Positions 6,982 through 19,133 of a stretch of DNA of 64,000 bases are shown in pieces. The position numbers were made by a program, and so were the translations under genes. The notes beneath the pieces were generated by a model. It had not been told where the DNA came from. It saw only the letters and a list, made by a program, of their open reading frames with translations, and did no database searches. The DNA is from Cyanidioschyzon merolae (taxonomy: Eukaryota), in the NCBI GenBank assembly GCA_000091205.1, contig AP006501.2; one strand, written 5' to 3'. Each line of letters begins with the position of its first letter. Position 1 is the first letter of the stretch.

Positions 6982-8463
6982 TCAGCACACACGAGATGAT
7001 GGTGCACTGCTTTTGGAAGGGCAAAGAACACAAGCAATGCGCTCGAATGCAACTTGTAGCGTTTGCGTATCCTCAACTGCCGAGAAGCAACATCTATACC
7101 ACCCGGGTTCAGGAGCATGGCAAACACGACCCGGATAGATCAACACTCGCGCTTCTCGAAAGAGTCGCTCAGCAAGTTCCAACTCCGCTTCCCAGGTCGC
7201 CTCGCGAAGAAATCTCTGCAAGCCAATCCATACGAAGAATCCAGCCTGGCTGGGATAGATGCGCACCTGCTCTGCCCCAAGACTGGTTTGAATCGCTTGA
7301 ACAGCCACCTGATACGCTTCCTCTAGTCGTCGTTGGTTTGCGACGAAAAACTTGTGCAACCATTGCTCGTCACTCAGCATTCGGCAAAGCACTGCCTGCG
7401 TATCCCGACTGGGCGACGAAAACAAACACGGTGCTCGAATCGCCTGCAACAGAGCCTGGTTCTCCGTAAAGAGAACCCCACATCGCATGCCACTCATACA
7501 GAGGTCCTTACTAAACGTCCATACGACATGCACATCGTTGCCGAGACCCTGGACGGCCAAAACGTCCGCTACGGAACGAAAACGCCCCGCATGGCTCTGG
7601 AAGACCGAGAGCGCGTACGCCTCGTCGCTCACCAGGTGCATGCCATGGGATCGACACCATTGAATGGAAAGCTCTAGTTCTTCTGTCGATAGAATATTGC
7701 CCGTTGGATTCCCGGGACTGTGCAGGAGCAACACTCGCGGTCGTTGCCCGCTCGCTCTACAGGTCCGGTCCGCAGTTTCAAGCGCATCCCTTGTCAGACG
7801 GTGGTGGTTATGGAGCGCTGTTTGTACAGGTACGGGTATGCACTTTGCACGGCAGCTCAGGTCAAAGTCAAATCCCGGATAATACGGTGCCGGAATCAAC
7901 ACGGCATCACCATCGTCACACAGGGCACTGAATACCAGGTCAAGTACAGCGCTTGCACCAACGGCACACAGGTAGTTATCGGGGTTGGCTGCACTTGCTG
8001 GGCCGCCTTTCGAAGCTGCAAATATATGCTCTCGAAAGAGTTGGCTAAGTGCCTTGCGAAAGCGTAACTCGCCGAACATGTAGTCGTACTGAAGGCACTC
8101 GTTGCGCGGCAATACGTCGCTGCGTTCCCGCTGAAACTGGGCTAAGACGGGTCCCGCACTGAGCGCGTTCTCGGCCACCAGCAGTGAGATATAACCATTA
8201 GGTTTTAATTGTGGATCGTATGCGTCCTGTTTCGCTGTAAAGGACCACTCAATCTGGCGTGGCGGTGCACGACTCGCAAGCGCCCTCCCCCGGTCTGAAA
8301 GCGTCTCTGCTGCGCTTTTCAGCACGCTACTCGTCTCTGGTTGTTGCATGCAGACACGTATACTTCGCTGTTGCTGCTGGGACGTAGCTGAACAGAGCAG
8401 CCGATCCCGACACTGAGCGCGAACGAACAAAGCTTCTCGGTAAACACCAGACTGGAGGAACAT
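6982..8463 (-). CDS. ACC-synthase-like class I/II PLP-dependent aminotransferase
   Basis: Motifs 'NGYISLLVAENALS', 'NPTGNILSTEELELSIQWCRSHGMHLVSDEAYALSVFQ' and 'SFSKDLCMSGMRCGVLFT' (Lys-containing PLP site) match aminotransferase class I/ACS-like proteins. ATG at 8461-8463. 493 aa. Confidence 0.8.
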   Translation of the reverse strand: MFLQSGVYREALFVRAQCRDRLLCSATSQQQQRSIRVCMQQPETSSVLKSAAETLSDRGRALASRAPPRQIEWSFTAKQDAYDPQLKPNGYISLLVAENALSAGPVLAQFQRERSDVLPRNECLQYDYMFGELRFRKALSQLFREHIFAASKGGPASAANPDNYLCAVGASAVLDLVFSALCDDGDAVLIPAPYYPGFDFDLSCRAKCIPVPVQTALHNHHRLTRDALETADRTCRASGQRPRVLLLHSPGNPTGNILSTEELELSIQWCRSHGMHLVSDEAYALSVFQSHAGRFRSVADVLAVQGLGNDVHVVWTFSKDLCMSGMRCGVLFTENQALLQAIRAPCLFSSPSRDTQAVLCRMLSDEQWLHKFFVANQRRLEEAYQVAVQAIQTSLGAEQVRIYPSQAGFFVWIGLQRFLREATWEAELELAERLFREARVLIYPGRVCHAPEPGWYRCCFSAVEDTQTLQVAFERIACVLCPSKSSAPSSRVC

Positions 8464-8561
8464 CCAGACTCGGCATCTCGAAGCGGTGGATCACTGCGGC
8501 CGACACTACGGCATTCTCCCGAGACGCTTCCATTGCGGTATCGAGTACGCTGATGAAGCGG

Positions 8562-9256
8562 GGAACTTGGCGACTGAGACAAAGTCTTCAACGTAGAAGC
8601 CTCATGGTGCAAGGATCGGGTGTATAAAGGTACGAGATACTGCGAACTTGGCGACTGAGGCACAGTCTTCAACGTAGAAGCCTCATGGTGCAAGGATCGG
8701 GTGTATAGAGGTACGAGATACTGCGAACTTGGCGACTGAGGCACAGTCTTCAACGTAGAAGCCTCATGGTGCAAGGGTCGGGTGTATAGAGGTACGAGAT
8801 ACTGCGAACTTGGCGACTGAGGCACAGTCTTCAACGAAGAAGCCTCATGGTGCAAGGATCGGGTGTATAAAGGTACGAGATACTGCGAACTTGGCGACTG
8901 AGGCACAGTCTTCAACGAAGAAGCCTCATGGTGCAAGGATCGGGTGTATAAAGGTACGAGATACTGCGAACTTGGTGACTGAGACACAGTCTTCAACGAA
9001 GAAGCCTCATGGTGCAAGGATCGGGTGTATAAAGGTACGAGATACTGCGAACTTGGCGACTGAGACAAAGTCTTCAACGTAGAAGCCTCATGGTGCAAGG
9101 ATCGGGTGTATAGAGGTACGAGATACTGCGAACTTGGCGACTGAGGCACAGTCTTCAACGAAGAAGCCTCATGGTGCAAGGATCGGGTGTATAAAGGTAC
9201 GAGATACTGCGAACTTGGCGACTGAGACAAAGTCTTCAACGTAGAAGCCTCATGGT
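8562..9256. repeat. 81-bp minisatellite, ~8.6 near-identical tandem units
   Basis: Unit 'gtcttcaacgtagaagcctcatggtgcaaggatcgggtgtataaaggtacgagatactgcgaacttggcgactgaggcaca'. Copies differ at only a few positions (ataaagg/atagagg; gagacaaag/gaggcacag; acgtag/acgaag). It lies in the 5' flank of the ACS-like gene. It yields a 306-aa repetitive ORF (8319..9239, minus strand) in a frame that overlaps the ACS-like CDS. Confidence 0.9.
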
Positions 9257-9602: not shown

Positions 9603-10430
9603 TCAACTAGCACCAGATGTGTACGTTTCGCGCACAAGCCTCCAGGAGTTATGATCGAAAAACTTGCCGTACGTCAACAAAGCCAGTAAGGATGCAGAAA
9701 GCGTACTACCTGCTGTGATCATATAATACACAACGATTTGATAACGCGCTGCTGTGTCCGTGGAACCGTTACCGACAATCTGCCCCGTCATCATGCCTGG
9801 TAAAGAGACAAGGCCTACCGTCAGCATCGAGTTCACGACCGGAATCAGTGCCGAGCGCAAGGAGGCTCGAAGTGCCGGTGCGATCGCTTGTTTTGGACTG
9901 GCACCTATGCTGAGGAGTTCCTCGATCTCTTTCTCGTGCGAGGATACCTCGGACTGGAGTCGTTCGCCCAACAACGCTACTGTGTTCATGGCGTTCCCGA
10001 GAATCATACCGGAGAGCGGGATAAAGTAACGCGGCATCCAGAAAGGTTTCACTCCGATGACGGTCCAAGTTGTTTGCACGATCACGAAACCTGCACCACT
10101 GAGAAGCGAGACTAGCACGGCGACGAACATACCCGGTATTGGTCGGTGCATGCGCTGTGAAGCTGTCCAGGCAGCAACCAAAGTCATGATGCTTACTGCC
10201 AAGAACACAAGCAATGGTAGGTTTGCAGCGAAAATCCAGCGCAAGACGAGCCCTACGAGCAACAACTGGACTGCGGCACGAAGGGACGCCCAAACCATAT
10301 CCAGTTCGATGCCAATCTCAAACAGCCATATCGCCATAACTGACAGTAGCATGAAACCGTAAGCGACAGCAAGTTGACCAAGACTGACAGGCAGGGCGCC
10401 GGCCGTGTCGGCACTGCTCGTGGACTCCAT
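9603..10430 (-). CDS. UPF0014/FetB-type (YbbM; plant ALS3/STAR2-like) ABC transporter permease
   Basis: Multi-TM protein of ~275 aa with UPF0014 family character ('ALIPVVNSMLTVGLVSLPGMMTGQIVGNGS...ARYQIVVYYMITAGSTLS'). The ORF-track start at 10454 is GTG; the first ATG is at 10428-10430. Confidence 0.75.
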   Translation of the reverse strand: MESTSSADTAGALPVSLGQLAVAYGFMLLSVMAIWLFEIGIELDMVWASLRAAVQLLLVGLVLRWIFAANLPLLVFLAVSIMTLVAAWTASQRMHRPIPGMFVAVLVSLLSGAGFVIVQTTWTVIGVKPFWMPRYFIPLSGMILGNAMNTVALLGERLQSEVSSHEKEIEELLSIGASPKQAIAPALRASLRSALIPVVNSMLTVGLVSLPGMMTGQIVGNGSTDTAARYQIVVYYMITAGSTLSASLLALLTYGKFFDHNSWRLVRETYTSGAS

Positions 10431-10706
10431 GAATGGGCGACGGATGCAAAACACGAACGCTTCCGACCCCAGGTCTGAACAACGAAGTGAATGTCCAGGT
10501 CAGAGCGCGTTGACTGCCGCACGCCGTCGAACAAGGCAAGAATCCTCGACCAGGTACAAGTGCAGTCGTGCAGGCTCTCGTACGGCTTCTCAAGGCCCAG
10601 CAGCAGGAGCGCGCTGAGCTCTGGTGCTGTGCTCGTTCGTGCCGTGCGGCCTGCCTTCTCACCAAGACACCTTCGACTGTGAATGCTCGCTTCCCGATCT
10701 GCGGCT

Positions 10707-11996
10707 CTATTTTGTTGCTCCCAATGACTCCCCAGTCAAAAGCCGATGAATGCTGGCCGCTGTATCGGCGGTACCGAGCAGCGCACGCGCGTCACCGCGT
10801 AAGAACAGCTCCCCGTCCCGCACAAGAATGAGCTGGCCGTCGGTAACCTCCGAGAGTCTGTGCGTCACTATGAGTATTGTGGCCCGGATGCGTTCTTTCC
10901 AGTCCGATAAACGTTGCAATACTTGAGCCGCTGTTGCTGCGTCCAGACTTGAAGTGACCTCGTCCAGCAGTAGGATTCGTGGTTGCTGCAAAAGCACTCG
11001 CGTGAGGCCGAGGCGAGCTCGCTCACCCCCTGACAAGGCGGCTAGCGGTCGATCCAGAATCGTTCGCGATAAGCCAGCTATATGCAGTGCTTCCGGTAGT
11101 CGCTGTTCAAGCTCTGTCCGCGATACAACTCCCAAACGAACGAGCGTCTCGAGCGCCGACTTTGCTGGTTCCTCCGTGTTCGCGCTCGAGCGTTGTCGGC
11201 GTTTGCCGAGGACCAGCTCCCAAAGCGTTTCTCGCGTTACAAGTCGGCGGAGTGCCTCCAGCAAACCAGGCCTCCTATGTGCCAAACACGGCAATGCAGG
11301 TTGCTGGCTCAGAAAACCTACTAGTTTGCCCCGTAACTCGCCTGGAGGGTACGCTGGCACTGGTGTGCCCCACAGCCGGACTTGACCACCTGAAGGCTCC
11401 TCTAAGCGGTTCACCAGTCGAAGAAGTCGAGACTTGCCAGCTCCTGACGGGCCGATGATAAACACCGTCTCTCCGTCGCGTACTTCGAAACAGATATTCC
11501 GAAGTATGGGTCGAGTCGTCCCCGCCGCCTGGGTGCTCGCAGACAACGTCACTCCTTCGAAAGCGATTGCCACCTCCCGTGTTCCACTTGGATAGTTCTC
11601 GACGAATGCGCCAGAGTCTCGCGTCACTGGGCGAATAGGATCGATGTTCTCGTGGTGCCTCTCTGTCGCGGAGCCGTACTCGAGGTCCGTTGCCAGCGAA
11701 GCGGCTGCCGTCGAAAGCACAGCGTCCGCGTCTTCCCTGGTTGACTCCTGATTGCTCACCGAAAGAGTATCTGTGCCAGCTTTTGGACTTAAGCGGTTGC
11801 TGAATGACATGAAAGGGGGAAAATATCCCCCGGGAACAGATATACCTGAAACGGCTGCTGCAACTCCAGCGCAGAAGTCAAGCGCTGCAGAGACGGCCCT
11901 GGTGGCAGGCCTCGACGCCTGAAGCGTTTGCTCAGGTTTCGCTCTGAGCGTATTCGGAACGGAACCTGAGACGTTTCCCTGGGTGCTGATCACCAT
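10707..11996 (-). CDS. ABC transporter ATP-binding protein, FetA/YbbL (plant STAR1)-like, with N-terminal extension
   Basis: Walker A 'GPSGAGKS', Q-loop 'FLSQQP', ABC signature 'LSGGERARL', Walker B 'ILLLDE', H-loop 'ILIVTHRL'. The ORF-track start at 12050 is GTG; the first ATG is at 11994-11996. Confidence 0.85.
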   Translation of the reverse strand: MVISTQGNVSGSVPNTLRAKPEQTLQASRPATRAVSAALDFCAGVAAAVSGISVPGGYFPPFMSFSNRLSPKAGTDTLSVSNQESTREDADAVLSTAAASLATDLEYGSATERHHENIDPIRPVTRDSGAFVENYPSGTREVAIAFEGVTLSASTQAAGTTRPILRNICFEVRDGETVFIIGPSGAGKSRLLRLVNRLEEPSGGQVRLWGTPVPAYPPGELRGKLVGFLSQQPALPCLAHRRPGLLEALRRLVTRETLWELVLGKRRQRSSANTEEPAKSALETLVRLGVVSRTELEQRLPEALHIAGLSRTILDRPLAALSGGERARLGLTRVLLQQPRILLLDEVTSSLDAATAAQVLQRLSDWKERIRATILIVTHRLSEVTDGQLILVRDGELFLRGDARALLGTADTAASIHRLLTGESLGATK

Positions 11997-12503
11997 CACA
12001 CTTCTTGAAGCATCTGGTTGGAATCGTTGATTGCATAGGATCAGAAACACACTGGAAGGCGCCTGGCTCGCGTTCGACGACCCCTAGCGCAGGGTAGAAG
12101 CTGCGATTTCACGCCGCTTCGTGCTTGCTCGTTCAAGGGCGTTTCTCGTATACCGTGTTCAAGTCCATAACTAAACCATCTGGTGACTTTGGACAACGGA
12201 GAACGCTGAGAGCGCTGGGCACTACCCAAAACGCCTCAGAGTCTGGAGCTGGCGCTCTCCGAACCAACCGCAGCAGCGACCTGGTGGTAGCCTGGAACGT
12301 GTCGGTTCACTGGAGGCTCTCCTGACGAGGCGTCCAGCACTGCCCGTTCTCTGTCGTTCTGTTTCTTTCTGTAGGCCTGTAGGAGTACGCAGGAACATCT
12401 GCGTTGTCTCACTTTGGATTTCCGGTTTCCTCGAGAGGAGACGTTGGCAGCCGCTGGACGAAACTTGTAAGCCGACCCGCAGCAGTGGGTTACGCTTCCG
12501 AGC

Positions 12504-15500
12504 ATGCCCTCCAGGGGTGCGCGTTCGAAGAAGCCCGCAAAGAAGACCGCCTCAGCTGAGGAGGCAGCACAACGACTGCCAGAGCATCTCGCGGCAGGCA
12601 AGTTCACCTCACTGGCCGACATCACAAGTATCGTGCTGGGTGCTCGCTCGTGGCAGTCCGAGGCAGAGGCCGAGACGAGGCCCCTCACGACTACCGCGTC
12701 TACTGCAGAGCTTCAAAATTGGGATGAACACGCTGCGCTGGTTGCCCAACGACTCTTAAAACGCGATGAAAGTACAAAACTACGAGCGTTGCAGGAGCTC
12801 AGCACCCTCTTGCAGGCACTGGAACAAGCTTCCTCGGAAAGAATCGCAGACCAAGCAGCCTACGGGGCCCAGTACGGCGCTTTTCTCGGAAACTTTGCCA
12901 CTGCATTCGTGAAACTGACACTGGATCCGAGTGTACGCGTTCGAGCAGAAGCCGTCGCGCTGGCGGGGCTTGTCGTTCGTCTTTACGGAAAACGGTCAAT
13001 AGCGCTCCTGCCGGGGATGCTTCCGGCATGGGTTGGGTTGCTGGGCGATCCCTCGGCACAGGTCGCTGAAGCTGCAGCTCGTAGTTTCCAGGACGCGTTT
13101 CCCACTGAGGTGAAACGTCGACGAGCGCTGTTGTTGGTACCGCATGCACTGATCCACCACGCAACCGCGCAGGTTCAGAGCAGTCTAGCGGGAAACGTGC
13201 CAGAGACGTTGCGTCAATCCGCAGACAAGGCCGAAATGCCCCTTCTCCACGCGCTGGTGTGCGTGGCGTCCACCGCGGAGGCTTTGGCAACGACACTAGC
13301 GACAAAGACAACCTTGTCGCCAGCAGACGACTCGGAACTGGTTGCATTTCTGGTCCACTGGCTCCAGCACTGGGTATCGGAGGAAGGCGTGCAGACGCTT
13401 GCGGTACCGCTTTTCCGCCGCTACCGGCAATCGCTCCGCGTCCATGAGGCCTTCTGGCGACTAGCCATTATTTCAGTGGACCTTTTCGGAGAGCTTCGGC
13501 AGACCAGAGACGAGCACCAGGGGCATAGCTTGATCGCTGCATTGGCAAACGCTTGTCCAGACTGGGAAAGCAAGGCGTCGGACGGTTTTTCCTATCTCGT
13601 TTCACGACTCGCTTGGGATGAGCTGCACGCTTCCTGCCAAGAACAGGTCTGGATCCTCCTCCATCGCTATGTTGTGCGGATTGAGCCTTCCAGCAGCAGC
13701 CTTGCACGATCGATCTCTGCAAAGACGCTCACAAGCTGGCTTCTCGGCGAGTCGATAGCAGGGGGCCGGCGTCAGGCCTCTGCAGCCGAACGTATCCAGT
13801 CTGGTCGGGTTTTCCGGGGGCTGCTACCCTTCTTGCAAGCGCTACGAATCAAGTGGCTGACCAGCGACGCTGTGCGTTCCGATCCAGTCGAGAGCGCTTC
13901 CCGTCATCATTGGCTCGAGTCGTTCGAGGGTATGCTGCTCGATGAGCTCACCACTGCCTTGCTCTGGCGAGCGCCTAAAACAAAGTTTCCTCCAGCGCTT
14001 GTGGGGAGCGCTTACCTGGACTGGTGGCAAGCAGCGCTGGTCGCTTTCCTGGAGAGTGCGCTCTGGGTCCAGCAGCTATCCTCGAGACGAGAGCGCAGCG
14101 ATGATAGGACTGCTCTGCGCGCTCGATGCCGCGCTGCACTACAGCGGTACCTTCTTGCAGCGGAGGCGTTTCAGCGTGCACCTGAAGCGTCGCAATCCGT
14201 GGTGCAATTCGGTGGTAGACCAGCCGATGCATCATTGCTTCATGAACGCTTTTTCGATGTGCTTTTCTATGCGAGCGTGGACGCTTGTCGAAGCGACTTG
14301 GATGCAACGCGCTCCAACTGGCAAATCGTTGGTGAGGAGCTCGCCGCGGGGCTCGTCGTCATCGTCGTCATCGAACGAGCACCTGCCTGGTATGCGAAGG
14401 CGGTGGTCGCTGCTTGCGAACGTGCCGTGCAGGGAACCTCGTTCGCGACGCTCGAGTCAGACCAGCAGCCCCGGTGGTCACTTCTAGGCCTCGATCCTGG
14501 CGTCATTCGTACCTGGAGTGTAGAAATTATGGGAGGTGCGTTCTGCTGGGCACTGAATCGTTTCCGTCGACGAAAGATTGGCAACGGAAACGCACAACAT
14601 GACGATAATCACCAGCAGGTACATGGTACTCCAGCGGAAGCAGAGGTTGCAACCACGCTGCTCCTGTTGGCATGGAGTCAGCGCGCCCCGGCTTCGATGC
14701 TGGAACGTGCTTTGCAGTATCCAGATCCGATTCAGGGCCGCCATCGACTCAACGACTTTTTCCACGACGCTGTGTCGCTGCTGGAGCATCCATCAGCGGA
14801 AAACGAGCATGACGATGACGATGACGACAACGAGGAGGAGGCGGTGGCGGTGGCAGCGCTCCCTGCTGCTTACAGTCACCAGCTCGTAGCGGTGCTGGGT
14901 GCACTGGCTGCATGCAGTCACTCCTCTGAGGCGCTGAGCGGTCCATCGAGCGTCTTGAACGCGCGTTTAGAGGAGTGTCCTGGCGCGGGTCGCTGGCTCA
15001 TCGAACTTGCTCAAGCAGCACGTATCCGAGCAGCTTCAATAGAGCAAGGTGTTCCAGCTGGTCTCTGGACAGCGACGGTGTTTCCCCGTCACCTGGCTGA
15101 CCAAGTGGAGCACCTGCAGTGCTACTGCGACCAACTGGACCCCGCCCGCTACTCCTATTACCGCCGTTCGGAGACAGACGCTTGGCCTTCCGTTGGGCTC
15201 CTGCTGGAATACGCCGCCTGGCCCGAGGCCTGGCTCTGGTCAACGTCCACTGACTGGTCTACACTGAGGAGCAGCATGGATGCCAGCGTGTGTCGGGCGC
15301 TGCGTCTCGGACTCTGGGACTGGCCCCAACTGGCCTCCTTTCAGCAGGGTGTTCATTCAGCAGCTGCTCCATGGACCGCAGAAACACGAGCTTGGCTGTA
15401 CGTGAGAGCGCTCCTGGCATTAGAGCAGCACCAGAGCCAAGAAGCAAGCGACGGGCATGTGTTTGCGGACGTCCGACCGTCGGCAGCGCTGGAGCGTGAA

Positions 15501-18500
15501 ACCCTGGAAAGAGTCGTGCTCGACGCACTCGCGTGGCTCCTTGAGGATATGGAACGCGTTCTGCTCGCAGAGTCGTGTGAAACGCAAGCTCCGGACATGC
15601 TCGAGGCTGTTCAACGCTTCCAGCGCGTGCTGCTAGAGCTCGCCGCCACCTCGAAACGCCCCTGGCAAGCTCTCCTGTACGACATATTGTACAAGTGCTG
15701 GGTATCGGATGCAGAGGACTCGAAGGCAATAGCAGCACAGCCTGGAGAGCGCGTGATAGAACCAGCATGGCGACCATTGCAAAGACTAGAGGAGCAACAA
15801 CGACAACAACGCTGGCGTTGTTCGCTGCTCGAGTCGCTGACACCCTCGCTGGACGATGCAGCAAGTCCGCTTGATGCTACGTTGTGGCACCTCTACCTGC
15901 AGTTTCCATGGACGCGTTCCTGGGCAACAGCACGATTTATCGGCTGGCTGCAGCGAACGGATGCTGCGACTGCTGCGTCCGCACTCGACGTGGCGGCAGC
16001 GGTACTTGCGCGCCTCCTGGACCCCGAAGCGAGCACTGCAGCCTGCTGCGACACGATCGTAACCGAGTTGGCAAAAGCCCCGCTGTACGCACCAGCGACA
16101 CCGACAGCGTTTCAGGTGCCGCTCGAGCAAAGCGCTGAGCGTCAACCGACGATGCTCATGAGACTGCTGATATGGTCGTCACTGGTACGAGAGCGTTTCT
16201 GGATACGTCTCCAGACGGATGCTGCGTATTTTGGACGAAGCGTCACCGCGGCCTCTTTCACACGATGCACGATGGCTGCTCTGGAAACCGGTCCGGTTAC
16301 CGGCCTGCAGGCATCTGGAGCCGTGGGAGAGTTTGCGTTGGAGCTCCTTCGGTATGCGGCAGCGAGTCTGGCGCAAACGCTGCCCGTATGGGTCCAGAGC
16401 GTTCTGAATGACACCTCAGCTGAGCGAATGCGCAGCGCTACCGGGCTGCAGCACGAGCCGTCTGTCCAAGTGGCCCCACAGGATGTACCGAAAACACTGT
16501 GTGCTTCTATGGAAATTCTCGGGCATGCGGCTGCGATTCCCGCCTCCTACGAACATCGTGCGGATTTGTTGACGTACCTGCGTTCCGCACTGGAACTGCT
16601 CATTGAGGTGCCGTTCACGAACCTGATCACAAGCCTCGAGCGAGCGCCACAGCAAACGAGTGAGGAGTTTCATCGAGGCTCCTCATTCGTTGGCAAACAT
16701 GCAACGCCGGACGCCAACACGACAAGGCCAGCAGCATCGGCAACGAGCGTGCGTCGCGTTTCGGACGCTCCATCGACACCGTCGTCATCGTCGAGCGCAG
16801 CGGAGGACTCGAATCGCCAGGTACTCGCGGTCCTGTTTGAACGGCTCGTGCGTCCGAGTCTGGACGTTTTCGCTACCGACCTGGGCGAAGAACACTGGAC
16901 CTGGATCGGCGAGACTGCTACGCAGGCGCTGGTGACCTCGCTGGGCTGGCCAGTGTACGCGGCAGCGCTTCGGTGTCTGTACGCATGGCATGTGCGGCTC
17001 GTAGAGCGTGCCTCTTCGACCCTGTTATCGGAACAGATGGTCAGCAGTATTGGACAGGCCCTCTGGATGACTTGTTATCGATTGGCAGAGGCGTATCGTG
17101 ACTCGCTCGTCACCGAGGCGCCATGTTCACCGGTTGCGGAGCTGAACCTACCCGTTCAAGATGCGCTGGGCTATTTGATTTGCGTTTTCAGACCTGAACT
17201 TGAGCGACTGGCGCTTCGCAGCGAGGATTCCGCACCCCAGATGATGACCGCGTTACCGTGCTGGCGCGAAGCTCGTGACCGCTGGGTAACGACGCGTTTT
17301 GGTGTCAAGTGTGAGTCGTTGCTTTCATCGATGCTGGGCCGCTTCTGGTGTCTCACCTGGCTTCCGTATCTCGTTGCAAGCAAAAGCACCGCTGTCCGCA
17401 GTGCCGTCATGCAGTTGCTGGGCACCCTGTGGGATGCGCTGGAAGCCTGGCTCGCGACGTCGACACTGGAGGGTGCACAGGCGTCCCTGGGTACCGGGCA
17501 CGCAGGTACAGGTGCCTCTCCTGCGGATACACGTCCAGGCTCGATTCGTTTCGAGTCCGATCAGCGTGGAGCGGCCACAGCCCTGGGCAGACGACCTGCA
17601 GAGCCCGAGCCGATGCCCTGTAGCAGCACCAGCGCTACATACGCTACCGAGACAACGCCACTGGAATACTCTGCGGATCGACGGGGCACCCAGCTGGACG
17701 GCAGCGTCGAGCATCACGACCCGTTACGCACGGAGGCATCGGAGCTCTCCGTCGCCGTCAGCGACTTGGGCATTGCAGAGAATACCGTGCATTTGGAGGC
17801 ACTCAAGGGATTGGCAACGCTCCACGATGCCCTGATTCAGAGCTGCAGTGAGGCGCTGTTTGCCCTGACGGCGAGGTTTCCGTCGCTGGACCCGACACCA
17901 GAGGCCGCGTCATGGGAACCTCTGCAGACCTATTTTTGCGCTTGGCTGGTGCTGCTTCGGCTCCAGGTCACGGGCTCCTATCCAGAAGCGTCGCTGGTAA
18001 CACCGTTGGGGTCGCGGTTGCCGAACACGTTGCGAGAAGGTGCGCTTTGGACGCTTCTAGACGGACTCGGGCGTTGCTGGATCCGAGCGGCAGCTACGAT
18101 AACGACGCGAACACCCGAAAGCAGTCACTCCACGAGCGATGCAGAGGCTCAATGCTTCCGAGAGCAACTGGAAATGCTTCTGGCTGGTCTCACCGAGCAA
18201 CTGGTGCTCGCTACCTCGGATCCGCAGTGGCTGGCGAGGGAGATCTTCTGGGAGCCAACAGACTGGCGACCAGCGGCTCTCGGAGCCCGCCTCCTCTTCC
18301 TGACGCTACTCGTGCAACCGCTTCTTGCACAACGCTGGTTTACCGATCATGTTGCGGATCGCTCGCTTCTTCAGCCGCTGGAGCTGTTGAGCCGCACGCT
18401 GCTCACTGGACCGTTGATTGCCCGCGAACTCGAGGCTATTCGGCAGTATGCCGCGCATGTGCACCAGACCCAGCACCGGGAGAACGGCGAAACCGTTCCC

Positions 18501-19133
18501 AATGCATCCCCTTCCCATACGGGTGTGTTATCCGTTCAGGGTAGTCTTGCAGCACGAGAGATTCTGGTTCGGTACCACTTTGAAGAGGTCCAATTACCCG
18601 TGTGTCTCCGACTGGCCGATACGCATCCGTGGCGAGCGCCGGAGCTTGTGCTTGCGCCCGCTGAACGCTCCGTAGTCTCGTTGGCGGGCATCGAACGTGA
18701 AACACGCGCTCGATCAGAGCTCGAAGCTCGCTACCGAAGACTCTTTCTCCATATGACCAGAATTTTACAACACGGAGTGGATCGGCACTCTGCCGACGCC
18801 GGTACCCTACTGCTACAACTGGGCGCATCGGCAACGTCCTCGTCGACATCGACGACATCGACGCTTGGGACGGCGTCCTGTGTGCCTCGTCAGTACTTTG
18901 CACCGAGTGCCCTCGCCAGTGCGGTGGTGTACTGGCATCAGCGTTTGGTTTCCCTATTGCGTGACGCACCCGAGTGTCCGATCTGTTATCAGGTGCTGCA
19001 TTCACGAACAGGTCAGGTTTCGCGTGTGCGCTGTCCGACCTGTCGGTATCGATTCCATGCAGCTTGTCTGTATCGGTGGTTCAGTAGTGCTGCGCACGGT
19101 GCCACGTGTCCGTTGTGTCGGTCACCGTTCTAA
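12504..19133 (+). CDS. LTN1: E3 ubiquitin-protein ligase Listerin (Ltn1/RKR1), ribosome quality control
   Basis: 2209-aa single ORF. The N-terminal HEAT-like region and the length fit Listerin. The C-terminal RING 'CPICYQVLHSRTGQVSRVRCPTCRYRFHAACLYRWFSSAAHGATCPLCRSPF' closely matches the Listerin RING consensus. ATG at 12504. Confidence 0.9.
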   Translation: MPSRGARSKKPAKKTASAEEAAQRLPEHLAAGKFTSLADITSIVLGARSWQSEAEAETRPLTTTASTAELQNWDEHAALVAQRLLKRDESTKLRALQELSTLLQALEQASSERIADQAAYGAQYGAFLGNFATAFVKLTLDPSVRVRAEAVALAGLVVRLYGKRSIALLPGMLPAWVGLLGDPSAQVAEAAARSFQDAFPTEVKRRRALLLVPHALIHHATAQVQSSLAGNVPETLRQSADKAEMPLLHALVCVASTAEALATTLATKTTLSPADDSELVAFLVHWLQHWVSEEGVQTLAVPLFRRYRQSLRVHEAFWRLAIISVDLFGELRQTRDEHQGHSLIAALANACPDWESKASDGFSYLVSRLAWDELHASCQEQVWILLHRYVVRIEPSSSSLARSISAKTLTSWLLGESIAGGRRQASAAERIQSGRVFRGLLPFLQALRIKWLTSDAVRSDPVESASRHHWLESFEGMLLDELTTALLWRAPKTKFPPALVGSAYLDWWQAALVAFLESALWVQQLSSRRERSDDRTALRARCRAALQRYLLAAEAFQRAPEASQSVVQFGGRPADASLLHERFFDVLFYASVDACRSDLDATRSNWQIVGEELAAGLVVIVVIERAPAWYAKAVVAACERAVQGTSFATLESDQQPRWSLLGLDPGVIRTWSVEIMGGAFCWALNRFRRRKIGNGNAQHDDNHQQVHGTPAEAEVATTLLLLAWSQRAPASMLERALQYPDPIQGRHRLNDFFHDAVSLLEHPSAENEHDDDDDDNEEEAVAVAALPAAYSHQLVAVLGALAACSHSSEALSGPSSVLNARLEECPGAGRWLIELAQAARIRAASIEQGVPAGLWTATVFPRHLADQVEHLQCYCDQLDPARYSYYRRSETDAWPSVGLLLEYAAWPEAWLWSTSTDWSTLRSSMDASVCRALRLGLWDWPQLASFQQGVHSAAAPWTAETRAWLYVRALLALEQHQSQEASDGHVFADVRPSAALERETLERVVLDALAWLLEDMERVLLAESCETQAPDMLEAVQRFQRVLLELAATSKRPWQALLYDILYKCWVSDAEDSKAIAAQPGERVIEPAWRPLQRLEEQQRQQRWRCSLLESLTPSLDDAASPLDATLWHLYLQFPWTRSWATARFIGWLQRTDAATAASALDVAAAVLARLLDPEASTAACCDTIVTELAKAPLYAPATPTAFQVPLEQSAERQPTMLMRLLIWSSLVRERFWIRLQTDAAYFGRSVTAASFTRCTMAALETGPVTGLQASGAVGEFALELLRYAAASLAQTLPVWVQSVLNDTSAERMRSATGLQHEPSVQVAPQDVPKTLCASMEILGHAAAIPASYEHRADLLTYLRSALELLIEVPFTNLITSLERAPQQTSEEFHRGSSFVGKHATPDANTTRPAASATSVRRVSDAPSTPSSSSSAAEDSNRQVLAVLFERLVRPSLDVFATDLGEEHWTWIGETATQALVTSLGWPVYAAALRCLYAWHVRLVERASSTLLSEQMVSSIGQALWMTCYRLAEAYRDSLVTEAPCSPVAELNLPVQDALGYLICVFRPELERLALRSEDSAPQMMTALPCWREARDRWVTTRFGVKCESLLSSMLGRFWCLTWLPYLVASKSTAVRSAVMQLLGTLWDALEAWLATSTLEGAQASLGTGHAGTGASPADTRPGSIRFESDQRGAATALGRRPAEPEPMPCSSTSATYATETTPLEYSADRRGTQLDGSVEHHDPLRTEASELSVAVSDLGIAENTVHLEALKGLATLHDALIQSCSEALFALTARFPSLDPTPEAASWEPLQTYFCAWLVLLRLQVTGSYPEASLVTPLGSRLPNTLREGALWTLLDGLGRCWIRAAATITTRTPESSHSTSDAEAQCFREQLEMLLAGLTEQLVLATSDPQWLAREIFWEPTDWRPAALGARLLFLTLLVQPLLAQRWFTDHVADRSLLQPLELLSRTLLTGPLIARELEAIRQYAAHVHQTQHRENGETVPNASPSHTGVLSVQGSLAAREILVRYHFEEVQLPVCLRLADTHPWRAPELVLAPAERSVVSLAGIERETRARSELEARYRRLFLHMTRILQHGVDRHSADAGTLLLQLGASATSSSTSTTSTLGTASCVPRQYFAPSALASAVVYWHQRLVSLLRDAPECPICYQVLHSRTGQVSRVRCPTCRYRFHAACLYRWFSSAAHGATCPLCRSPF

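What the first reader, a model, noticed from the sequence alone, without database searches (positions are those of the whole stretch)
9603..11996. Bacterial-operon-like tandem of FetA/FetB-type ABC ATPase and UPF0014 permease in a eukaryote
The ABC NBD gene (10707..11996) and the UPF0014/FetB permease gene (9603..10430) are on the same strand, ATPase first, separated by only ~280 bp. This is the order and spacing of bacterial fetAB/ybbLM operons. In land plants the homologous pair STAR1 (NBD) and ALS3/STAR2 (TMD), which confer aluminium tolerance, are unlinked. Both proteins here carry eukaryote-style N-terminal extensions, and the ATPase has an insert between the Q-loop and the signature motif. 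The cluster may reflect an ancient horizontally acquired operon retained as a unit, or co-regulated linkage.
Basis: partly seen in the sequence, partly recalled or inferred. Interest (0 to 1): 0.6.

Follow-up and report, generated by a model that had tools for sequence, protein, structure and literature searches.

The report
Bacterial transporter operon kept as bicistron
A red alga (Cyanidioschyzon merolae) carries a two-gene bacterial ABC-transporter operon acquired by horizontal transfer, and the first gene has lost every ATG, which suggests that both proteins are translated from one mRNA by leaky scanning.

Summary
The window is Cyanidioschyzon merolae 10D. The ATPase (BAM82967) and the UPF0014/FetB permease (BAM82966) lie in tandem on the minus strand, 276 bp apart.

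Origin:
- The same flanked pair occurs in four Cyanidiales lineages.
- Both proteins are closest to the adjacent ATPase-permease pair of one uncultured high-GC bacterial clade (permease 45-54% identity, neighbour-joining bootstrap 91; ATPase bootstrap 68).
- Plant ALS3 groups instead with a Gloeobacter-type sequence (2000 of 2000 quartets).
- So this is a co-transferred bacterial operon, not an orthologue of plant STAR1/ALS3.

New finding:
- From the ATPase start codon (11810) to the permease start codon (10430) the sense strand has no ATG in any frame.
- At 1377 nt this is the longest ATG-free run in the window (mean run 67 nt).
- Two other lineages show the same (1296 and 1300 nt). A Cyanidium-like lineage has only two ATGs, each opening a short ORF.
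- The ATPase ATG has T at -3 and +4 in all four lineages.

This is the signature of a bicistronic mRNA translated by leaky scanning. No transcript data were available, so that step is inferred. Substrate and cellular location are unknown.

The parts
10707..11810 (-). ABC ATPase (NBD) coding sequence, cistron 1, 367-aa form starting MSFSNR. The database annotation (BAM82967.1, 429 aa) starts at the upstream in-frame ATG at 11996.
   Evidence: ORF and Pfam ABC_tran. The start at 11810 matches MSFTDS in Cyanidiococcus and MSIDNN in L003, whose ORF is closed upstream. There is no internal Met and no out-of-frame ATG. Walker A 11430..11453, Q-loop 11298..11312, signature 11022..11036, Walker B 10959..10976 and H-switch 10857..10868 are all intact.
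11808..11810 (-). Start codon of cistron 1 in a weak context (tttcATGt: T at -3, T at +4).
   Evidence: T at -3 and T at +4 occur in all four lineages. T is the rarest base at -3 among 36 long ORFs (6 of 36).
11574..11810 (-). N-terminal extension of the ATPase, about 79 aa, acidic, poorly conserved and predicted to be disordered.
   Evidence: Alignment A2. 13 D/E against 7 K/R. AlphaFold2 pLDDT below 50 for residues 1-76.
11166..11288 (-). Cyanidiales-specific 41-aa basic insert after the Q-loop (CLAHRRPGLLEALRRLVTRETLWELVLGKRRQRSSANTEEP).
   Evidence: Present in all four Cyanidiales ATPases and absent from the six bacterial partner ATPases aligned with them (A2). Coordinates. Modelled as two short helices at pLDDT 52-66.
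10431..11807 (-). ATG-free run of 1377 nt on the sense strand. It covers the whole of cistron 1 after its start codon plus the spacer.
   Evidence: Longest of 1833 ATG-free runs on both strands of the window (mean 67, second longest 692). None of 2000 dinucleotide-preserving shuffles reached zero (mean 11.2). The antisense control CAT occurs 18 times. Synonymous-codon randomisation gives P about 0.002-0.003. The run is replicated in L003 (1296 nt) and L001 (1300 nt).
10431..10706 (-). Spacer between the two cistrons, 276 nt. It is not conserved in sequence and has no ATG, no unusual RNA structure and no Rfam match.
   Evidence: Fold z-score -0.14. Rfam search. Spacers in relatives are 180, 214 and 55 nt.
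9603..10430 (-). UPF0014/FetB-type permease coding sequence, cistron 2, 275 aa (BAM82966.1). Its ATG at 10428..10430 has G at +4.
   Evidence: Pfam PF03649, E 1.5e-76. Identical to the 10D protein. Contains 14 ATGs in 825 nt, so it is not depleted. AlphaFold2 model with pLDDT 94.

Best explanation
An ancestor of the Cyanidiales (Cyanidioschyzon, Cyanidiococcus and a Cyanidium-like lineage) acquired a two-gene ABC-transporter operon from a bacterium. The operon encodes an ATPase followed by a UPF0014/FetB-type permease. The donor belonged to an uncultured high-GC clade whose only named members are Haliangiales and 'Deltaproteobacteria' genomes assembled from metagenomes.

The pair integrated between a listerin-like gene and an aminotransferase gene. 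It took on host base composition and has kept the bacterial gene order ever since.

The alga appears to express the pair as one capped bicistronic mRNA rather than giving each gene its own promoter. Some scanning 40S subunits would start at the weak-context ATPase AUG. The rest would pass it, meet no AUG for about 1.3 kb, and start at the permease AUG. The start-codon contexts would then set the ATPase-to-permease ratio, in place of bacterial translational coupling.

The product would be a (permease)2(ATPase)2 exporter. By analogy with E. coli FetAB and plant STAR1/ALS3 it probably acts in metal tolerance.

Shown here: the adjacency, the synteny, the bacterial affinity of both proteins, and the ATG purge. 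Inferred: the single transcript, leaky scanning, the subunit composition, the substrate and the location.
For: Co-transfer from bacteria:
- The block listerin | ATPase | permease | aminotransferase is conserved in four lineages.
- The most divergent lineage, L002, has GC 0.66. This matches the published 65.7% of Cyanidium caldarium (PMC9812998).
- Permease: the Cyanidiales (bootstrap 100) group with 26 bacterial sequences from metagenomes (bootstrap 91) at 45-54% identity. Identity is 34% to plant ALS3 and 38% to E. coli FetB.
- Those bacteria carry the ATPase directly upstream of the permease, overlapping it.
- Their ATPases score higher against the algal ATPase than anything in the 5.8-billion-protein search: 134 and 124 bits against 115 bits. 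They group with it in the tree (bootstrap 68).
- The best stand-alone ATPase from that search, P0125, is itself encoded next to a UPF0014 permease.
- Plant ALS3 pairs with a Gloeobacter-type sequence and the Cyanidiales with the bacterial clade in 2000 of 2000 quartets.

Bicistron with leaky scanning:
- ATG-free runs of 1377, 1296 and 1300 nt span exactly from the ATPase ATG to the permease ATG in three lineages. Each is the longest run in its sequence.
- The shuffle and synonymous-codon tests are significant. Control genes match expectation.
- The 20 other long ORFs carry 8-21 ATG per kb.
- The 77 bacterial ATPase domains encoded next to a UPF0014 permease average 3.6 Met each.
- In L002 the two remaining ATGs open ORFs of only 37 and 42 codons.
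- The ATPase ATG has T at -3 and +4 in all four lineages.
- The spacers are 5-7 times shorter than each genome's mean intergenic length.

Precedent from the literature:
- Start-codon depletion upstream of ORF 2 and a weak ORF 1 context define leaky-scanning bicistrons in green algae and in Drosophila stoned and Snapin (PMC11291117).
- Iso-Seq shows bicistronic mRNAs in Cyanidium and Cyanidiococcus. Their translation mechanism is unresolved (PMC9812998, Supplementary Note 8).
Against: - No transcript, ribosome-profiling or protein data were examined. The single mRNA is inferred from sequence only.
- The C. merolae start-codon consensus is poorly defined by my 36 ORFs, so 'weak context' is suggestive rather than shown.
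- The Cyanidium-like lineage keeps two ATGs, so the constraint is not absolute.
- The trees are neighbour-joining with unsupported backbones. Long-branch effects on the plant clade cannot be fully excluded. The ATPase clade has only bootstrap 68. No plant STAR1 sequence could be obtained.
- NCBIfam equivalog cut-offs for FetA and FetB are not reached, so the iron or metal function is analogy only.
Confidence: 0.65

Rival explanations
1. The operon was transferred from bacteria, but the two genes are now ordinary monocistronic genes. A compact terminator and promoter sit in the 55-276 nt spacer. The tight linkage persists only because the genome is compact.
For: This is the usual fate of transferred operons. 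The yeast enterobactin operon is mostly monocistronic (bioRxiv 10.1101/399394). The spacer differs in sequence and length between lineages. Each ORF has its own conserved ATG.
Against: It does not explain the complete loss of ATG in all three frames over 1.3 kb. The loss starts exactly at the ATPase ATG, is specific to the sense strand, and recurs in three lineages. A 55-nt spacer in L002 leaves little room for a polyadenylation site, a promoter and a 5' UTR. The spacers are 5-7 times below the genome averages.
Confidence: 0.15
2. The pair is transcribed as one bicistronic mRNA, but the permease is translated by termination-reinitiation or by an internal ribosome entry element in the spacer rather than by leaky scanning.
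For: Reinitiation on bicistronic mRNA can be induced in yeast (PMC11952965). The short 55-nt spacer and the two short internal ORFs in L002 would suit reinitiation.
Against: Neither mechanism needs cistron 1 to be free of ATGs in all frames. Reinitiation after a 367-codon ORF is generally inefficient (established knowledge). The spacer folds no better than shuffled sequence (z -0.14), has no Rfam match and is not conserved. No IRES was predicted in Cyanidiales polycistronic transcripts (PMC9812998, Supplementary Note 8).
Confidence: 0.1
3. The pair is ancestral: inherited vertically from the first plants and algae, or from the cyanobacterial ancestor of the plastid. It is orthologous to plant STAR1/ALS3. 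The Cyanidiales kept the linkage and other lineages lost it or lost the genes.
For: The plant ALS3 clade is slightly closer to the bacterial sister clade than to other bacteria (34% against 30% identity). The backbone of the tree is unresolved. Differential loss is an acknowledged alternative to horizontal transfer in Cyanidiales (PMC6629376).
Against: The Cyanidiales group with the bacterial clade to the exclusion of plants (bootstrap 91; 71-86% of quartets). Plants pair with a Gloeobacter-type sequence against the Cyanidiales and that clade in 2000 of 2000 quartets. Cyanobacteria pair with the Cyanidiales in under 1% of quartets. No other eukaryote appears among the closest 120 permease hits.
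Confidence: 0.05
4. The two genes are adjacent by chance, or the region is bacterial contamination or a misassembly.
For: None found.
Against: The same eukaryotic flanks occur in four lineages and in several independent assemblies. GC3 matches the host. The two gene trees agree.
Confidence: 0.01

Closest known systems
Bacterial fetAB (ybbLM) operons: an ABC ATPase plus a UPF0014 permease
   Same: Same two protein families, same order (ATPase first) and tight spacing. The closest relatives of both algal proteins are such operon pairs.
   Different: The algal ATPase has an N-terminal extension of about 80 aa and a 41-aa insert. The overlap or few-nucleotide gap of most bacterial loci is replaced by a 55-276 nt spacer. 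The ATPase gene has no internal ATG. NCBIfam FetA and FetB equivalog cut-offs are not reached. The host is a eukaryote.
Plant STAR1 / STAR2 (ALS3) bacterial-type ABC transporter for aluminium tolerance
   Same: Same architecture, with separate ATPase and UPF0014 permease polypeptides in a eukaryote (PMC11897453). A role in tolerance of metals and acid is plausible.
   Different: The plant genes are unlinked. The permease is only 34% identical. Plant ALS3 groups with a Gloeobacter-type sequence and not with the Cyanidiales, so the origins are independent. STAR1 could not be compared.
Horizontal operon transfer of the enterobactin (ent) operon into Wickerhamiella/Starmerella yeasts (Kominek et al.)
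   Same: A bacterial operon was acquired by a eukaryote and its genes stayed clustered and functional. Leaky scanning was suggested there as a transient early stage.
   Different: The yeast genes became mostly monocistronic with longer intergenic regions. Here the sequence signature suggests a stable bicistron optimised for leaky scanning and conserved across deep divergences.
Leaky-scanning bicistronic loci of green algae (Gallaher 2021; Dallo 2024) and Drosophila stoned and Snapin
   Same: ATG depletion upstream of ORF 2, a weak ORF 1 start context and a short inter-ORF region (PMC11291117).
   Different: Those loci are not reported to derive from bacteria. This is a red alga, and the two ORFs are partner subunits of a transferred operon. 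The transcript is not yet demonstrated here.
Polycistronic transcripts in Cyanidiophyceae found by Iso-Seq (Cho et al. 2023)
   Same: Same group of organisms. Mostly bicistronic transcripts with no predicted IRES.
   Different: That study could not show a translation mechanism and does not mention this locus in the text I could read. This locus gives a sequence-level argument for leaky scanning.

Membership tests
UPF0014 / FetB permease family (Pfam PF03649) | Full-length match to the family profile above Pfam's gathering score | tested here: met
   257.4 bits against a cut-off of 22.6, covering profile positions 3-242 of 242.
FetB equivalog (NCBIfam TIGR00245, iron efflux permease) | Score at or above the curated equivalog cut-off | tested here: not met
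   162.5 bits against a cut-off of 410. Membership holds at family level only, and the iron-export function is not transferable.
FetA-type ATPase (ABC ATPase partner of a UPF0014 permease) | Intact ABC motifs (Walker A, Q-loop, LSGGE, Walker B, D-loop, H-switch) | tested here: met
   Alignment A2 and motif coordinates.
FetA-type ATPase (ABC ATPase partner of a UPF0014 permease) | Closest relatives are ATPases encoded next to UPF0014 permeases | tested here: met
   The ATPases of L090 and L092 are the best matches (134 and 124 bits). The clade has bootstrap 68. P0125 is also encoded next to a UPF0014 permease.
FetA equivalog (NCBIfam NF007601) | Score at or above the curated equivalog cut-off | tested here: not met
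   106.7 bits against a cut-off of 292. The model ranks third, behind CydD and LssB.
Plant STAR1/STAR2(ALS3) system (ABCI16/17) | Orthology of the permease with ALS3/STAR2 | tested here: not met
   34% identity. Separate clades. Quartets 2000 of 2000 for (plants, Gloeobacter-type | Cyanidiales, bacterial clade).
Plant STAR1/STAR2(ALS3) system (ABCI16/17) | Orthology of the ATPase with STAR1 | not tested
Plant STAR1/STAR2(ALS3) system (ABCI16/17) | Confers aluminium tolerance; transports UDP-glucose or aluminium | not testable with these tools
   Needs genetics and transport assays.
Horizontally transferred bacterial operon in a eukaryote | Each gene's nearest relatives are bacterial and come from the same donor clade | tested here: met
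Horizontally transferred bacterial operon in a eukaryote | Donor gene order and adjacency are retained, and the pair is integrated among eukaryotic genes in several species | tested here: met
Leaky-scanning bicistronic locus | One mature mRNA carries both ORFs | not testable with these tools
   No transcript data were available. Iso-Seq data exist for Cyanidiococcus and Cyanidium.
Leaky-scanning bicistronic locus | Depletion of ATG in all frames between the ORF 1 start and the ORF 2 start | tested here: met
   0 ATG in 1377, 1296 and 1300 nt, and 2 in 1090 nt.
Leaky-scanning bicistronic locus | Weak start context at ORF 1 and a stronger one at ORF 2 | tested here: inconclusive
   ORF 1 has T at -3 and T at +4 in 4 of 4 lineages. 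ORF 2 has G at +4 in 3 of 4. The host consensus from 36 ORFs is weak.
Leaky-scanning bicistronic locus | Short 5' UTR free of ATG before ORF 1 | tested here: inconclusive
   The nearest upstream ATG lies 65-183 nt before the ORF 1 start. The transcription start site is unknown.

The most novel reading that the evidence does not exclude
A bacterial fetAB-like operon transferred into the Cyanidiales ancestor has survived as a true eukaryotic operon. It is one capped mRNA whose first cistron was purged of every AUG, so leaky scanning delivers ribosomes to the second cistron and fixes the subunit ratio. This would be the first natural case showing how a eukaryote keeps an acquired bacterial operon polycistronic over deep time. 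It would also be the first mechanistic evidence for how Cyanidiales bicistronic mRNAs are translated.
Probability: 0.6. Interest if true: 0.85.

Novelty: new variant of a known kind. Interest (0 to 1): 0.8.

Why it matters
[quoted passage not shown] In the best-studied natural case, the yeast enterobactin operon, the genes became mostly monocistronic.

This locus would show a different and stable solution. The operon is kept, bacterial translational coupling is replaced by leaky scanning, and selection removes every ATG from a 367-codon gene.

It would also give a mechanism for the bicistronic transcripts reported in Cyanidiales, which the authors could not explain.

C. merolae can be modified by homologous recombination (my own knowledge), so the predictions can be tested directly.

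Separately, the locus shows that an extremophilic red alga and land plants acquired the ATPase plus UPF0014-permease transporter independently. It also contradicts a published statement that C. merolae has no ABCI-type ABC proteins (PMC10513242).

Tried and rejected
- NCBIfam could not classify the ATPase. FetA ranked third among generic ABC models, so I used genomic context and trees instead.
- One scan of species-representative bacterial and archaeal genomes (GTDB) gave relatives of at most 43% identity. The true sister clade exists only in metagenomes, so the donor could not be named beyond the Haliangiales and 'Deltaproteobacteria' labels.
- Shared neighbouring genes did not link the sister clade to any named genome.
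- Text searches found no mention of this pair, or of ABC, FetB or ALS3 in C. merolae. I searched Rossoni 2019 (main text only, because no supplements are held), Cho 2023 and the general literature.
- A plastid or mitochondrial targeting role for the ATPase extension was rejected. The extension is acidic, disordered and unconserved, and the permease has no presequence.
- An IRES or a structured element in the spacer was rejected.
- No promoter or terminator scan was run, because the available consensus scans are bacterial.
- No maximum-likelihood tree program was available. I used neighbour-joining with bootstraps and distance quartets.
- STAR1 could not be retrieved.
- Naming of 50%-identity cluster representatives was mostly unsuccessful.
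Full report
**1. What is there**

The window has long intron-free ORFs and GC of about 0.56. Exact look-ups identify it as Cyanidioschyzon merolae 10D.
- The permease ORF, 9603..10430 (minus strand, 275 aa), is identical to BAM82966.1, annotated 'unknown ABC transporter permease subunit'.
- The ATPase ORF, 10707..11996 (minus strand, 429 aa), is identical to BAM82967.1, annotated 'unknown ABC transporter ATP-binding subunit'.

Pfam gives a full-length UPF0014 match for the permease (E 1.5e-76) and ABC_tran for the ATPase. NCBIfam FetB and FetA models match but fall far below their equivalog cut-offs: 162 against 410 bits, and 107 against 292 bits.

The flanking genes are eukaryotic. A listerin-like RING E3 ligase lies at 12504..19133 (plus strand, divergent from the pair). 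A class I/II aminotransferase lies at 6982..8463 (minus strand).

The 276-bp gap is the shortest of the eight same-strand gaps between long ORFs in the window. The other seven are 876-1802 bp. The published mean intergenic length in C. merolae is 1890 bp (PMC9812998).

**2. Anatomy of the ATPase**

I aligned it with three other Cyanidiales orthologues and with bacterial partner ATPases (A2; coordinates).
- All catalytic motifs are intact.
- A 41-aa basic insert follows the Q-loop (11166..11288). It is shared by the four algal lineages and absent from the bacteria.
- The N-terminal extension is unconserved.

The conserved start is probably the ATG at 11810.
- It gives MSFSNR, which matches MSFTDS in Cyanidiococcus and MSIDNN in lineage L003.
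- The L003 ORF is closed just upstream of its start.
- The 62 residues added by the database annotation are therefore doubtful.

The remaining extension of about 79 residues is acidic and predicted to be disordered. The core of the model is confident, and the insert is modelled at low confidence as two short helices.

The permease has essentially no extension: about 9 residues more than E. coli FetB.

**3. Linkage in relatives**

The block listerin | ATPase | permease | aminotransferase recurs in three further lineages, and in other C. merolae-type strains (L006-L009).
- Cyanidiococcus yangmingshanensis (L001).
- An unnamed lineage with 79% permease identity (L003-L005, assembly GCA_041825655.1).
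- A lineage with 63% permease identity from a metagenome (L002).

L002 has GC 0.66. This matches the 65.7% reported for Cyanidium caldarium. The identification as Cyanidium is an inference.

The spacers are 276, 180, 214 and 55 nt. Each is 5-7 times below the published mean intergenic length of the corresponding genome: 1890, 930 and 320 bp.

**4. Origin**

Permease:
- Outside the Cyanidiales, the closest permeases are 26 clusters from metagenomes at 45-54% identity.
- Their contigs are bacterial. They carry sigma factors and a sigma-54 activator, have overlapping genes, and have GC of 0.62-0.68. The ATPase is directly upstream of the permease and overlaps it.
- The only names attached to this clade are Haliangiales and 'Deltaproteobacteria'.
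- In a neighbour-joining tree (303 sequences, 258 columns, 100 bootstraps) the Cyanidiales have bootstrap 100. Joined with this clade they have bootstrap 91. The clade itself has bootstrap 78. The deeper backbone is unresolved.

ATPase:
- The ATPases of that clade score higher against the algal ATPase than anything in the 5.8-billion-protein search: 134 and 124 bits against 115 bits.
- They share its unusual C-terminal RLLTG tail.
- They group with it at bootstrap 68.
- The best stand-alone ATPase found by the big search, P0125, is also encoded next to a UPF0014 permease.
- Of the 93 loci examined, 86 have the ATPase directly upstream of the permease.

The two gene trees therefore agree, and the gene order is that of the donor.

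**5. Relation to plants**

I used a remembered ALS3 sequence only as bait to retrieve real plant ALS3 proteins. One of these was then searched against representatives of 1.84 billion proteins.
- The streptophyte clade (angiosperms, Diphasiastrum, Calypogeia, Closterium, Mesotaenium) has bootstrap 82 and is separate from the Cyanidiales.
- Its closest bacterial representative belongs to a Gloeobacter kilaueensis cluster.
- Distance quartets give (plants, Gloeobacter-type | Cyanidiales, bacterial clade) in 2000 of 2000 cases.
- They give (Cyanidiales, bacterial clade | plants, other bacteria) in 71-86% of cases.
- Cyanobacteria pair with the Cyanidiales in under 1%.
- C. merolae permease is 34% identical to ALS3 and 38% to E. 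coli FetB.
- ALS3 has no ABC ATPase within 10 kb in A. lyrata or Closterium.

The algal pair and plant STAR1/ALS3 are therefore independent acquisitions of the same kind of transporter.

The GC3 of both algal genes matches the host, which is consistent with an old transfer.

No Galdieria or other red-algal protein appeared among the 120 best permease hits. This suggests gain after the Galdieriales split, or loss there. It is weak negative evidence.

**6. The ATG-free cistron**

I was checking whether the spacer could serve as a 5' leader and found that it has no ATG in any of the four lineages. About 9.4 would be expected in total.

Extending the test upstream gave the main result.
- In C. merolae, the nearest ATG upstream of the permease start, in any frame, is the ATPase start codon at 11810. 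It lies 1377 nt away.
- This is the longest of 1833 ATG-free runs on both strands of the 64-kb window. The mean run is 67 nt, the median 42 and the second longest 692.
- The same holds in L003 (1296 nt) and in Cyanidiococcus (1300 nt). In each, the run is more than twice the next longest in the locus.
- The Cyanidium-like L002 has two ATGs in 1090 nt. Both have T at -3 and open ORFs of only 37 and 42 codons.

Controls:
- Dinucleotide-preserving shuffles give means of 11.2, 12.1, 6.4 and 13.4 ATGs. Shuffles reaching the observed count numbered 0, 0, 2 and 0 of 2000.
- The reverse-strand equivalent, CAT, occurs 18, 10, 5 and 7 times. ATC, ATA and ATT occur at ordinary frequencies.
- With the protein sequence fixed and synonymous codons randomised, out-of-frame ATGs are still avoided (P about 0.001-0.006 per lineage). 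Eight control genes match expectation.
- The 20 other long ORFs of the window have 8-21 ATG per kb and 0.5-4.7% Met. The ATPase has none.
- The 77 bacterial ATPase domains encoded next to a UPF0014 permease average 3.6 Met per domain.
- All strain variants of the C. merolae-type protein keep Met only at positions 1 and 63 of the 429-aa form, or only at position 1 of the 367-aa form.

Start-codon contexts:
- The ATPase ATG has T at -3 and T at +4 in all four lineages.
- The permease ATG has G at +4 in three lineages and G at -3 in two.
- T is the rarest base at -3 among 36 long ORFs, but that consensus is weak.

The spacer folds no better than shuffled sequence (z -0.14) and has no Rfam match.

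**7. Interpretation**

Three features together are the published hallmarks of bicistronic mRNAs translated by leaky scanning in green algae and in Drosophila stoned and Snapin (PMC11291117; PMC7896298):
- removal of all ATGs between the ORF 1 start and the ORF 2 start;
- a weak ORF 1 start context;
- a short inter-ORF region.

Reinitiation or an IRES would not require an ATG-free first cistron.

Bicistronic transcripts have been found by Iso-Seq in Cyanidium (470 transcripts) and Cyanidiococcus (334 transcripts). No IRES was predicted in them. The authors state that they could not demonstrate reinitiation or leaky scanning (PMC9812998, Supplementary Note 8). I could not check whether this locus is in their list.

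I therefore propose that the transferred operon is still expressed as one mRNA, with leaky scanning replacing bacterial translational coupling. The transcript itself is inferred.

**8. What the transporter does**

By family it should be a (permease)2(ATPase)2 ABC transporter. The known relatives are:
- E. coli FetAB, annotated as a putative iron exporter;
- plant STAR1/ALS3, needed for aluminium tolerance, with a disputed substrate (UDP-glucose or aluminium complexes) and a vesicle or tonoplast location (PMC11897453).

A metal-tolerance role in an acid hot-spring alga is plausible but only an analogy.

**9. Novelty**

The genes are annotated, and horizontal transfer into Cyanidiales is well known (PMC6629376).

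None of the papers I could search mentions this pair, its bacterial-operon origin or the ATG purge. One study even reports no ABCI proteins in C. merolae (PMC10513242).

The closest precedent is the yeast enterobactin operon, which became mostly monocistronic. How eukaryotes activate acquired operons is described as unknown (PMC11952965).

**10. Verdict**

- A further feature, the ATG-free first cistron, raises the interest.
- I put confidence in the co-transfer at about 0.9, and in the full model including leaky scanning at about 0.65.

Noticed in passing
window 8563..9256: A tandem repeat of 81 bp x 8.6 copies (96% matches) lies between the permease and the aminotransferase. It creates spurious ORFs such as 8319..9239. 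Copy number varies between strains: 4.6 copies in L007 and 9.6 in L006.
   Followed up: partly
window 11812..12503 (+ strand); L001 8097..8548 (-); L003 9438..9896 (-): The second-longest ATG-free run in the window (692 nt) lies directly upstream of the listerin-like gene's ATG at 12504. Runs of 452-459 nt occupy the same position in two other lineages. This may mean a long 5' leader, with the two divergent transcription starts very close together.
   Followed up: partly
window 11811..11996 (- strand): The database start of the ATPase (429 aa, BAM82967.1) adds 62 residues that are not conserved. In L003 that region is not even open. The 367-aa form starting at 11810 is more likely.
   Followed up: yes
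[not shown]
   Followed up: partly
L090 3179..4232; L091 2916..3846; L092 3070..4254: In the bacterial sister clade the ATPase-permease pair is preceded by two further conserved genes that share a paralogous domain of about 95 aa. They have no Pfam match. They are absent from the algae and from the 80 species-representative (GTDB) genome loci.
   Followed up: partly
proteins P0499 and P0503: Fused forms of the family exist: ABC ATPase joined to UPF0014 in one chain (P0499), and a heavy-metal-associated HMA_2-like domain joined to UPF0014 (P0503; 26.2 bits, below the cut-off of 30). The second is a weak hint of a metal substrate.
   Followed up: no
proteins P0406/P0539 (Gloeobacter kilaueensis cluster): The closest bacterial representative to plant ALS3 is a Gloeobacter-type cyanobacterial FetB (about 45% identity). 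This suggests that plant ALS3 came from the plastid ancestor.
   Followed up: partly
literature: PMC10513242: A 2023 survey states that no ABCI-type ABC proteins are encoded in C. merolae. This ATPase-permease pair contradicts that statement.
   Followed up: partly
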